From contig NC_043003.1 in NCBI RefSeq assembly GCF_006345805.1, positions 96,906,001 to 96,970,000 on the forward strand: 64,000 bases of DNA. Reading direction: 5' to 3'. This document shows, piece by piece, positions 13,891 to 31,230 of the stretch (position 1 is the first letter of the stretch; each line of letters begins with the position of its first letter). The position numbers were made by a program, and so were the translations under genes. The notes under the pieces were generated by a model that searched no databases, was not told the origin of the DNA, and saw only the letters and a list, made by a program, of their open reading frames with translations. This stretch comes from Octopus sinensis (taxonomy: Eukaryota).

Positions 13891-14122
13891 GTTTAGGGAC
13901 CGATTGAACAAGTGATGTGTTTATTTACATTATTTGTCCTCATCTTGTTTGTTGTTAACACAGCGTTTCGGCTGATATATCCGCCAACCTTGGAAATTTC
14001 GAACCTGAGTTATAATTACTAATGTATTTTCCGATGATATTATTATTATTATTATATTATTATTATTATTATTATTATTATATTATTATTATTATTATTA
14101 TTATCATTATTATTATTCGGAT

Positions 14123-14190
14123 CACTGCTTGGAAACGAATTCGGAATCTTGGGATTAGTAGCCCGCGCTCTTAACCACTATGCCATAGTG
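14123..14190 (-). pseudogene. tRNA-like sequence inside the PLE 3' region
   Basis: A box TGGCATAGTGG, degenerate B box GAATTCGTTTCC, 7-nt loop CTACTAA, and CACT/AGTG acceptor-like ends. Confidence 0.55.
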
Positions 14191-14342
14191 GTTATGGAGT
14201 GAATTTTAGGGCTTATACATCTAATATTCTCCTATCCTTCCTTAATACCGGTTCCCATATACTATTCATATCTGCACTCGGTCTGCTTAGGAGGTTGTGT
14301 CCTAGCATATGTGCTACTTCTTTTAGTTTTCGTACTTTCCAG

Positions 14343-14681
14343 CCGATATACAGCCGCCTCCGATCGGAAGAGGAGCGGCCCGTTTCGCCCGTTCCGAGTT
14401 CGAGAGTAGATCGAGGCCGTCAACGTCCCGGAGCCTCCAGTCGTTAACTTTACCGGACAGAATTGCGTGTCGTTCTCCCGCTGGCGCCAGCTATCTTGAG
14501 GGAAACTTTGGAGGGAACCAGCTAATAGACGGCTCGATTGGTCTTTTGCCCCTACACCCGGTTCCAACGATCGATTTGCACGTCAGAGGTGTTTCGGACT
14601 TCCACCAGAGTTTCCTCTGGCTTCGTCCCGACCGGGCGTGGATCGCCATCTTTCGGGTCCACGGCCTCCTGCTACACCTGA
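14343..14681 (-). pseudogene. dispersed 28S rRNA fragment
   Basis: Conserved LSU blocks GACCCGAAAGATGG, GAAGCCAGAGGAAACTCTGGTGGA, CTGACGTGCAAATCG, AGCTGGTTCCCTCC.AAGTTTCCCTCA.GATAGCTGG and CCGGTAAAG. Confidence 0.9.
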
Positions 14682-15978
14682 GCTGCATGGGATGGAGTAC
14701 ACGCAGCCTTTGGTTATATTCTCTTCTATTGGTGGTTTTACACGAAGGAGATATTTGCGAAGTGTTGTATTACTCTTGAATACTTTCCTGTTGTCATATG
14801 GGCCGCATATCTTTTGTATCTTATCGAAGAGGATAAATAGGGTATAGCTGATCATGTATGAAAAAAAAAAAGATAGTTGAACGTGCATCTAAATGCAGTC
14901 ATTGCAGTGTAGTATATACATCATACAAAAAAACAAAAAACAAAAAAAAAAACAAATAAGAGAAATAAACATTAGTTGGTAAAGATACAATATGATGCAG
15001 AATACGCATTTCCACCCCAATTCAATATTAGTTATAGTGACTAAATTTATACCAGAATAAAATGCAATAGAGAAGGTAAGTGGAGGTGTAAGTGGAGAAA
15101 GCAGGATACAAGAGTAATAACACGTGGAAAATAACTATTCCCATGGTATAAATTTTCAGAGTACATGCTTGTAACAAATGGTGGTACAAAAATAATTCAA
15201 GAGCCTTATGCTTGGGACGTTGGTGTAAACTTTTATAATGAAGAGATGATATTAGTTTGTTAAACCATGTGTATTAATATGGTATTCGTACTGTCCCTTT
15301 ATAAAAGATAAAAATAAACGTCTAGAGAATTTGAGCTTAATTTGAGCGATAAAGTGTAAAGTCTTCTATCGTCTTCTTTCATCGCATCCATATTCATTAT
15401 GTGAAGGTAAACCCCCGAATCTGATATAACTGATAATGGTCTTATTTGGCAGCAATTACTCAATAAGAGGCTTTGGTAAATTCACTCGCCGTGAACCAAG
15501 TAGAATGTAACCTTTGGAGTACTTTATTTTCATCTGAGAGTTAGAAAAATTGGGGTTTTGTCACTTAAACTAAAGTCGAGCAAAAGAAAAGTATTGAAAT
15601 GGTAAGGCGATGGTAAGGAAGTTAAAAGCCGAAAGAAACTAATGATGTGCGAGTTGAAGAGGAGGAAATATGAAAATTAAAGTGAGGAGATAGAAAGATC
15701 AGCACTGCAAACAAGGCAATATGGAAAATAGATATATTAAATAAAAATGGCGGAAAAGAGGATTGGTAAAAATAGAAGGATCAGTAGACAATGAACAACT
15801 TCACCTAAAAAAAAAAAATTGCTATTTGTGTATAAGTTTTCTTTTAGAATCATTCAAATTATATTTTCAAGGCGTAAATACGAGACAGTGTAATAATACT
15901 GCAGTTGTCAGATGTTCTAACCGTGTAAGTTCAGAGAAAAACCTTTAAATGATTATGGAAACTGCGTCGTTAGGTTAA

Positions 15979-28989: not shown

Positions 28990-31230
28990 GGGCAACTATG
29001 ATAACCTATGTCTCTGTTTTTAAGCCAGAAGAGAGCAACTATTGATGTGTAAGAGTTTTGTCAACATCAGCATTATCAGCTCTCTTTCAGTATTTGCCAT
29101 TGAGAGGTTTTTCTTGCGATTTATTCCTGAGAATAGTTAGGGCAGTAGCTTTATCAAGGGTTTTCATATGTTTGGTTTTCTTCTGTGCTAGTTTCCAGAA
29201 CATCTGTTATTGAGGAAGCGATTTTCTTGTTTTCATGCTTTAAGACACGTTTTAGCATCCAGTCATCCGAATTTTTCAGATAAGTGTTTAGGCCAATTGT
29301 GGCAATATTCATTGTCAATTCAAGATGTAAGAATCCACGACCGCCCCCTTTTCATGGCAAGTAAATTCGTTCTACAACTGCCTTAGGGTGGTGCATTCTG
29401 TTCACTGTCGACAGTTTTTGAATTTTTCGGTCATGCTGGCATATTTCAGTATTTGAGCAGTTAACAACATTGAAACTGTAAGTTACGACCGGTATTTCTA
29501 AAGTATTAATTGCTTTGATCTTGTTTCTTGCTTTTATCTCTGTCTTGAGTATTGCCCTTATCCTGCGATGACATTCTTTTCTGATCTTTTCCCTCATCAT
29601 TGAATATTTAATTCGATCTCCCCCATATACCCCTAAGTATCTGTAACCTTCTTCTGGTTCTAACTCCTTTATACCATTCTCTTGGACAAGTTTAACGTTG
29701 GATGTTTCTGTCATTTTCCTTCTGGTAAAGATAGCTTTTGCATATTTATCTAGGCCAAATTCCATCCTTATGTCTTCACTGAACTGTTTTACAAATGCTA
29801 GTAAACTCTGTATATGCTGGTCATCTTTTCATAAAGATTTAAAGCATCCATGTAAAATAGGTGATTTATAGATTTGTCAAAACTTTTTATAGCTACACAG
29901 AGCAATTTGGAAAGAAGTATTAAGGCTTGACAAAAAAGGAGTGGTGATAGAGAGTCACCCTAGGAAATACCACATTAAATTCTTACATCCCCAGCATTCA
30001 ACAATTCATTCTCACTATTCAGAGTCTGTAATTTTCCATGATTTCATACTTACAGACAAGGAGTTTCGCAAAGTAGGAGCTATTTTATAAATTTCCTGAC
30101 ATTTCTTTACCCAGCTACGTGATCGACTATCAAAAGCTTTTTTATAATCTATCCAGGCTATTGACAAGTTCTTGTGCTGTTTGTGATAATCTTCCAAAAT
30201 CATCTTATTAATGAGACGCAGCCATAGGACCTACGTTTACATCTTTTTAAGTTATAGTTATTCGGTCAAGACAGATATTAATATATTGTACATTGTTAGG
30301 GTCTATAATTAGGGTTAATATCTTGTACAGGTTATGGGTTTACAATTTTTTTGTTCATTTATTTCCTCATCTTTTGAAATAGAAATGTAACATCATTAAC
30401 TAGCCAAGAGGGCATCATATTATCTGCGGCAAAACATTGTTGTAAGGTCTAGTCAGTGACTTTCTGAAAAACCATTCAACCAGAAGCTAGGAATTTTATC
30501 CTTTCCTGGAGACTTCCATTTTCTGAGAGTAGATTTTACATCTTCTACTTTGATACCCTCCCATTTTTGCTTTTCCGTGGAAGCTGAATCAGTAGATATT
30601 CTATCAATTCAAGGGGCTTTTTTACTGTGCGATTATTCTTCTGCCCAAATTTTACTCCAGAATCCCTGCACTTCTTTTGAGGAGCCATATTTTACTGTAA
30701 CTGATATTTTATCTATCTTCCTGTAAAAATTATCCTAGATTATTTTTAAACATGCTGTTGTCCTTGCGGGCAACTTTAGCAGATACCTTTTACTTGATGG
30801 TTTCTACAGTGACATTGGTGTCAAGAATGGATTTCATATTATACTATTTCTTTAATTCTCATATTTTTGTTGGTTTGAAGCTCTCATCAGACTTAAGGTT
30901 TTTTAAAAAATTCTATGTCAGAACTAAGTGAATTCGTTGTTGAACTCGCTCTTGCTAAACAGACATTTTGTGGGAATGTCTTCGTTTTCTAATTTTTTCA
31001 CCACATAGAGTCGTTAAGATCTTAGTAGGTGATTGATATCTGTAATATCAACATCATTAACTGAAATTATTTCTTTAAGGGTAAGGCAAATTTTACCAAT
31101 TACTTTCAGGTTTTGGTTAGAGTTGCGAATTTTGGGGAGTGTGTCACGTTCATCTATACTGGTTTCCTAAATTTACAGCCATTAAATCATGATTTGATTT
31201 TTTAGATTATTTAGTCCAGTTGGGTCAATT
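28990..31230 (-). mobile_element. degenerate R4/Dong-type LINE, RT region
   Basis: KSPGKDKI..FW, AWIDYKKAFDS, GDSLSPLLF, MEFGLDK.AK, YRYLGV and NKIKAINT.IPVVTYSF, with frameshifts and stops. Confidence 0.85.

What the first reader, a model, noticed from the sequence alone, without database searches (positions are those of the whole stretch)
14343..14681. 28S rRNA fragment replaces the middle of a Penelope GIY-YIG domain
Seen on the minus strand: PLE coding sequence up to CVYSIPCS, then ~340 nt of LSU rRNA in the same sense, then PLE coding sequence again at WKVRKLKE. The YIG..R..H core is missing, and there is no TSD or poly(A). Inference: a double template switch (PLE to rRNA to PLE) during reverse transcription, or RNA-templated break repair. 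If multicopy, it is a new rRNA-containing non-autonomous family.
Basis: partly seen in the sequence, partly recalled or inferred. Interest (0 to 1): 0.72.

Follow-up and report, generated by a model that had tools for sequence, protein, structure and literature searches.

The report
rDNA scrap patching a dead Penelope
A 339-base piece of the animal's own 28S ribosomal RNA gene sits in place of 176 bases in one dead copy of a Penelope retrotransposon; it is real but single-copy, likely a filler patch from DNA-break repair like the many other ribosomal-DNA scraps scattered through this genome, so it is ordinary debris rather than a new element.

Summary
A 339-bp 28S piece (window 14682-14344, minus strand) replaces 176 bp of the GIY-YIG region in one copy of a Penelope-like element (PLE) family with at least 1,389 copies. 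Both flanks are one family, both junctions occur in short-read contigs, and there is no TSD or poly(A). It is single-copy, so not a new family. The donor was an older rDNA variant, and patch and PLE copy are of indistinguishable age. Short rDNA scraps are scattered genome-wide: 0 of 52 other 28S/ITS2 scraps touch this PLE, many carry spacer (ITS2, 5'ETS, IGS), and a 305-bp IGS scrap interrupts another retroelement's RT gene in the same way. About 0.4-1.9 scraps are expected inside this family by chance. Best reading (0.55): end-joining repair with captured rDNA filler. A double template switch stays possible (0.28): same sense, same age, a 5' inverted piece taken from inside the deletion, and a second family copy carrying an antisense 18S piece that ends at the mature 5' end (1 of 141 unselected copies, P about 0.06-0.09). 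Earlier notes of this scan describe similar rDNA scraps elsewhere in this genome.

The parts
14832..14866 (+). 35-bp inverted PLE piece at the copy's 5' end, taken from inside the region that the sense arm has lost; abuts a T-run (14861-14871 on the minus strand)
   Evidence: 91% match to family copy L041 in opposite orientation; junction spanned by a 159-nt contig with 0 differences
14682..14832 (-). 5' sense arm of the PLE copy: end of linker and start of GIY-YIG domain, to CVYSIPCS
   Evidence: 92-95% to top family hits; 7 of 141 non-CpG sites differ from family majority
14344..14682 (-). 339-bp 28S rDNA piece of an older rDNA variant, same sense as the PLE; first 2 nt shared with the PLE; replaces 176 bp
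14343..14343 (-). one base that matches neither the PLE majority nor the older 28S variant (untemplated or later mutation)
14213..14342 (-). 3' sense arm: rest of the GIY-YIG domain (WKVRKLKE...) to the stop codon
   Evidence: 6 of 140 non-CpG sites differ from family majority
13921..14212 (-). PLE 3' UTR/pseudo-LTR: tRNA-like A/B-box stretch (about 14185-14131), (AAT)n run, and a hammerhead-like remnant whose CTGATGA core is deleted in this copy
   Evidence: shared with family copies; motif reading only, Rfam and ARAGORN found nothing in family copies

Best explanation
A stray piece of the host's rDNA was likely captured as filler when a break inside this Penelope copy was closed by end joining, with 176 bp lost. 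Shown: the replacement, its junctions (2-nt and 0-nt microhomology, no TSD, no tail), single-copy status, an older rDNA donor, and a genome-wide background of similar scraps that include spacer DNA. Inferred: the break, the end-joining pathway, and that the filler was a DNA fragment rather than a cDNA. The age data cannot tell whether this happened during the repair step of PLE integration or soon afterwards. The copy is dead and the patch has no predicted function.
For: rDNA scraps are common and not tied to this PLE: 56 hits to a motif inside the insert (the typed pattern differed from the rDNA by one letter), 53 scraps of 37-1697 bp delimited, 0 of 52 others PLE-flanked. None of the 53 has an A-tail; 4 have an exact direct repeat of 6 nt or more, two of them in microsatellites. 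Spacer DNA is scattered as often as mature-rRNA sequence: an ITS2 21-mer has 29 hits against 24 for a current-type 28S 21-mer, with short ITS2 scraps and inverted ITS2/28S patchworks; 34 of 46 dispersed 18S-start pieces keep 5'ETS; 3 of 7 IGS-subrepeat sites checked away from the sequenced units are 113-305-bp scraps. One of these, 305 bp of IGS, sits in the RT-coding region of another retroelement with only a few bases lost. Chance expectation inside this family is 0.4-1.9 scraps (rough, from counts). Internal deletions of 50 nt or more occur in 18 of 133 other copies. No rDNA at the 5' end of any of 141 unselected copies, although two-part chimeras outnumbered three-part ones 33 to 1 in Magnaporthe (PMC2104539, passages). 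Known parallels: rDNA capture at breaks in yeast (PMC11372161, passages); TSD-less, tail-less insertions with target deletions in 18 of 21 human loci (PMC1920257, passages).
Against: Same sense as the PLE, as for 83% of 18 human 28S/LINE-1 chimeras (PMC13174262, passages). Insert and flanks are of indistinguishable age (relative 0.56 vs 0.69, p=0.67; likelihood ratio for same age only 1.4). The 5' inverted piece comes from inside the deletion (chance about 0.25; 2 of 4 other copies with both features show it, P=0.08). A second copy, L035, carries an 83-bp antisense 18S piece ending at the mature 5' end; 1 in 141 copies has P about 0.06-0.09 under chance. 10 of 46 dispersed 18S-start pieces begin at or near the mature end (P 0.33, 0.03 or 0.0003 for assumed mean extensions of 30, 50, 100 nt), so some scraps may be RNA-derived. 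ITS and ETS could come from pre-rRNA, and IGS may be transcribed from spacer promoters (recalled). No allele without the patch was seen.
Confidence: 0.55

Rival explanations
1. Double template switch during PLE integration: the PLE reverse transcriptase copied the 3' arm, jumped to a 28S RNA fragment, and returned to PLE RNA 176 nt upstream, perhaps because a second priming event (the 35-bp inverted piece) occupied the skipped stretch.
For: Same sense; same age; inverted piece inside the deletion; second rRNA-bearing copy L035; one unassigned base at the first junction. PLEs capture host sequence, with template jumps proposed (PMC3846280, passages); the anole PLE protein extends both DNA strands in vitro (PMC11167929, parts 1-2 of 4 read); three-part LINE chimeras exist (PMC2104539, passages).
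Against: No two-part rRNA-PLE chimera among 141 copies or among the 28S/ITS2 and 18S-start scraps. L035 is antisense, which a first-strand switch on sense RNA would not give. 5' inversions are a family trait (60 of 133 copies, 8 short and internal). No TSD delimits the copy. The parts of PMC11167929 that I read report no template jumping.
Confidence: 0.28
2. RNA-templated repair in trans: a break in the existing copy primed a reverse transcriptase (PLE, LINE or R2) on a 28S fragment, and the cDNA was joined back with loss of 176 bp.
For: L035's 18S piece stops at the mature 5' end with microhomology on both sides; 10 of 46 18S-start scraps begin near the mature end; an R2-like element sits in one 28S unit (read by eye); endonuclease-independent insertions have this anatomy (PMC1920257, passages).
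Against: The window insert has no mature-rRNA end and no priming homology at its 3' junction; most scraps tested carry spacer.
Confidence: 0.14
3. A multicopy rRNA-bearing non-autonomous PLE family, or an assembly chimera.
For: None for the family. Raw reads from one run gave no cover at about 3% sampling.
Against: Left junction occurs once at up to 2 mismatches; among 18 hits to the motif at the insert's 3' end only the window's is PLE-flanked; both junctions are in read contigs, one from a second study.
Confidence: 0.03

Closest known systems
Templated/captured insertions at double-strand breaks, including rDNA fragments (yeast Break-Ins; PMC11372161 passages, PMC11724301 abstract)
   Same: Few-hundred-base foreign piece, little microhomology, trimmed target, no TSD; rDNA is a frequent donor.
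   Different: Those are induced breaks in yeast; here the break and pathway are inferred from one old fixed or common allele.
Non-classical (endonuclease-independent) L1 insertions (PMC1920257, passages)
   Same: No TSD, no poly(A), target-site deletion, occasional capture of other RNA or DNA.
   Different: The insert there is L1 RNA; here it is 28S sequence and an RNA origin is not shown.
28S rRNA/LINE-1 chimeras (PMC13174262, passages) and three-part chimeric retrogenes (PMC2104539, passages)
   Same: 28S piece of similar size (median 269 nt in human), same sense as the element.
   Different: There the RNA piece sits at the element's 5' end, or three different RNAs are joined inside one TSD; here the 28S is internal, both flanks are the same element, and there is no TSD.
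Host-sequence capture by Penelope elements in Adineta vaga (PMC3846280, passages)
   Same: Foreign sequence inside a PLE, 5' inverted arms, microhomology-mediated internal deletions.
   Different: Those inserts are N-rich coding linkers or spacers, some in intact ORFs; none is rRNA (0 hits for 'rRNA' in that text) and this one destroys the endonuclease.
SINE28 (PMC4994717, search listing and abstract start only)
   Same: 28S-derived sequence outside rDNA.
   Different: SINE28 is a multicopy family; this is single-copy.

Membership tests
Penelope-like element, C-terminal EN (host repeat) | [quoted passage not shown] | tested here: met
   RVT_1 hit 38 bits in L041; VY-SIPCSC-GRL-YKG..R..EEH..ADH in intact copies; 18 of 18 longer homologues carry PF26215, 17 PF00078, 1 PF01541. 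Pfam and NCBIfam gave no GIY-YIG hit on the family proteins themselves.
Penelope-like element, C-terminal EN (host repeat) | 5'-truncated copies with an inverted arm at the 5' end | tested here: met
   60 of 133 other copies, and the window copy
Penelope-like element, C-terminal EN (host repeat) | Hammerhead ribozyme motif in the pseudo-LTR | tested here: inconclusive
   Core motif matched in 13 of 36 copies by pattern; Rfam 0 hits and no folding signal in L074; core deleted in the window copy
rRNA-containing non-autonomous family (SINE28-like) | Several independent copies sharing the junctions | tested here: not met
   1 hit for the left junction; 0 of 52 other scraps PLE-flanked
Three-part template-switch chimera | All parts in one orientation | tested here: met
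   (sense arms and 28S all on the minus strand)
Three-part template-switch chimera | One TSD around the whole unit | tested here: not met
   Best repeat is a non-terminal 6-mer; PLE copies do not always have TSDs (PMC3846280 passages), so this is weak
Three-part template-switch chimera | All parts arrived together (no allele or orthologue with the element but without the insert) | tested here: inconclusive
   Ages indistinguishable; contigs too short to phase alleles
Break-repair filler insertion | No TSD, no tail, target deletion, little or no microhomology | tested here: met
   176-bp deletion, 2-nt and 0-nt microhomology
Break-repair filler insertion | Pre-insertion allele at the same locus | not testable with these tools
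   No relatives held for this genome; only short contigs in public runs

The most novel reading that the evidence does not exclude
Penelope reverse transcriptase grabs ribosomal RNA in vivo on either strand while integrating or re-cutting its own copies: a sense 28S piece inside the endonuclease gene here, and an antisense 18S run-off copy beside the hammerhead motif in a second copy. These would be genomic footprints of template jumping and two-strand extension by a PLE enzyme.
Probability: 0.28. Interest if true: 0.5.

Novelty: new member of a known kind. Interest (0 to 1): 0.22.

Why it matters
As a repair patch it matters little: it is one of an estimated 1,400-2,100 rDNA scraps in this genome (rough). 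The scrap population is a usable record of how this animal patches breaks and of past rDNA variants. If rRNA pieces prove enriched in PLE copies, the locus and L035 would be in vivo evidence on PLE integration, whose later steps PMC11167929 describes as not yet validated. My searches found no paper on rRNA capture by a PLE (open-licence PMC and bioRxiv only, supplements not read).

Tried and rejected
Assembly chimera: rejected by junction contigs. Different families on the two sides: rejected. Multicopy family: rejected. Donor being today's rDNA: rejected, the 3' end matches the older variant. Donor being one particular dispersed scrap: L026 shares 3 of the insert's substitutions within its aligned span, more than most, but ends before the insert does; not resolved. 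An 11-nt 28S-like filler in L083 was set aside as too short; the rDNA search did not report it. My early impression that 18S scraps mostly start at the mature end (6 of 19) weakened once older ETS variants were counted (10 of 46). Raw reads of run X21 gave 1 read at about 3% sampling and are uninformative. No contig showed an empty site or an unpatched allele, which proves nothing given contig length. Rfam and ARAGORN did not confirm the hammerhead or tRNA-like motifs. Earlier-findings look-ups by sequence and by words returned nothing. Rows dropped before counts: 5 near-identical duplicate PLE loci (L044-L046, L085, L086); 11 long rDNA units and 4 loci with a foreign 18S among 61 18S-start loci fetched of 67 hits.

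Full report
Setting. The window is G000:C7:96906001-96970000 in a 2.72-Gb genome. The organism is not given; from recall the repeats look cephalopod-like, which I did not test.

Observation. On the minus strand the sequence reads PLE coding to CVYSIPCS, a GC-rich block, then WKVRKLKE to a stop. Rfam calls the block eukaryotic LSU rRNA (150 bits). It is 95% identical over 14682-14353 to rDNA units of the same genome, one of which Rfam annotates as 18S-5.8S-28S (L112). Its last 9 nt match not the current rDNA but an older variant found in 17 other places, mostly decayed scraps. The insert is therefore 14682-14344, 339 bp, from an rDNA type since replaced.

Host repeat. Both flanks belong to one family: 39 of 58 other loci hold them colinearly, 23 of the 39 with exactly 176 bp between them. 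The lost part encodes the second cysteine, the YKG motif (not YIG) and the R, H, H residues. [quoted passage not shown] A 23-mer occurs 1,389 times at up to 1 mismatch. Of 133 other copies, 60 have a 5' inverted arm, 8 a short internal one, and 18 an internal deletion of 50 nt or more. The window copy runs from about 14866 to 13921, has a 35-bp inverted piece from inside the deleted region, and has lost its hammerhead-like core.

Junctions and reality. Left: 2-nt microhomology; right: none, with one unassigned base. No TSD or tail. A 77-nt contig bridges the left junction in run X1 (0 differences; possibly the assembly's source) and another the right junction in run X5 of a different study (1 difference). 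Each was seen in 1 of 4 runs in a cut table. The left junction occurs once in the assembly at up to 2 mismatches. It is real and single-copy.

Age. With rates per base class pooled from 132 family copies and 13 subfamily columns masked, the flanks show 10 changes (relative age 0.69) and the insert 14 (0.56); p=0.67. The likelihood ratio for same age against a later patch is 1.4.

Background of rDNA scraps. A motif inside the insert has 56 hits (my pattern carried one wrong letter, so the tolerance was in effect 2 mismatches). I delimited 53 scraps of 37-1697 bp with scattered ends. None has an A-tail, 4 have an exact repeat of 6 nt or more at the junctions (2 in microsatellites), and 0 of the 52 others have this PLE within 300 bp. 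Several abut or interrupt SINE-like repeats or microsatellites (read by eye). The scraps are not limited to mature rRNA. An ITS2 motif has 29 hits against 24 for a current-type 28S motif, and unpaired hits are short ITS2 pieces or inverted patchworks. Of 46 dispersed pieces covering the 18S start, 34 keep 5'ETS, 10 start at or near the mature end and 2 are unclear. Three of 7 IGS-subrepeat sites checked are short scraps; one, 305 bp, sits in the RT-coding region of another retroelement with a few bases lost, the same anatomy as the finding. A rough estimate gives 1,400-2,100 scraps and 0.4-1.9 expected inside this PLE family by chance.

Result against that reading. A second family copy, L035 (G000:C23, near 27.07 Mb), holds 83 bp of 18S in antisense, ending at base 2 of the mature 5' end, replacing about 15 nt beside the hammerhead-like motif, with 3-nt and 6-nt microhomologies. 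No rDNA was found in 88 further copies, so the rate is 1 of 141 unselected copies, P about 0.06-0.09 under chance. In 2 of 4 other copies that have both an inversion and a deletion, the inversion starts in the deletion (0.5 expected, P=0.08). Both are weak hints that the PLE machinery is involved.

Mechanism. I favour capture of an rDNA fragment as filler during end joining (0.55). The junction anatomy fits it, spacer-bearing scraps show that DNA-level capture likely operates here, chance accounts for one or two such events in the family, and no simple two-part rRNA-PLE chimera was found, though template switching should give those more often (33 to 1 in PMC2104539, passages). A double template switch (0.28) has same sense, same age, the nested inversion and L035 in its favour. 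RNA-templated repair by a reverse transcriptase in trans (0.14) explains L035 well but has no direct support at this locus. Family or artefact: 0.03. These weights are my judgement, not computed.

Comparison. It works like captured insertions at breaks (PMC11372161, passages; PMC11724301, abstract) and non-classical L1 insertions (PMC1920257, passages). It resembles 28S/LINE-1 chimeras in size and sense but those carry the RNA at the 5' end (PMC13174262, passages). Tailless retropseudogenes have TSDs (PMC5322556, passages). Dispersed rDNA debris is described in human (PMC5381670, passages). PLEs are known to take up host sequence (PMC3846280, passages). I found no report of rRNA inside a PLE (in-paper look-ups), in an open-access library only and without reading supplements.

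Verdict. Real, single-copy, dead, and most likely ordinary repair debris. Interest 0.22. The remaining value is a cheap genome-wide enrichment test on PLE copies.

Noticed in passing
L035:2053-2135 (G000:C23:27072662-27075812), same place as L194: Second copy of this PLE family with an rRNA piece: 83 bp of 18S, antisense, ending at the mature 5' end, microhomology on both sides.
   Followed up: yes
L146-L151 and L105 (C10, C11, C17 x3, C6 x2): Seven loci share one junction region between an older-type 28S piece (0.6-1.6 kb, variable 5' ends) and the same downstream non-PLE repeat; six match the junction pattern, L105 joins about 100 nt earlier. A small multicopy 28S-bearing family or dispersed copies of one old rearranged unit.
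   Followed up: partly
window 14185-14131 (-) and most family copies: The PLE family carries a tRNA-like A/B-box stretch and an (AAT)n run between its stop codon and the hammerhead-like motif, perhaps a SINE head taken into the master copy; ARAGORN finds no tRNA.
   Followed up: partly
L328:1292-1596 (G000:C4:90529828-90532848); related repeat at window 29900-30417: 305 bp of rDNA intergenic spacer inside the RT-coding region of another retroelement.
   Followed up: yes
L113 from about 735 (G000:C18:17535000-17544999): An R2-like retrotransposon begins right after the 28S site ending TGACTCTCTT (identification by eye and recall).
   Followed up: no
L110-L119: rDNA units lie on several chromosomes, some inverted or rearranged, with about 350-bp tandem repeats in ITS1 and 141-bp IGS subrepeats.
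   Followed up: partly
L279, L280, L282, L297 (contigs C1618, C1794, C12762, C8223): A different, AT-rich 18S gene, 75-78% like the host's in three of the four, likely a co-sequenced organism.
   Followed up: no
L193 (G000:C21:7196319-7199340): Four tandem copies of a 128-bp unit that starts at the 18S 5' end.
   Followed up: no
L168 (G000:C1:15748411-15751432): A 212-bp 18S-start scrap, 100% identical to current rDNA, flanked by inverted copies of the same host sequence.
   Followed up: no
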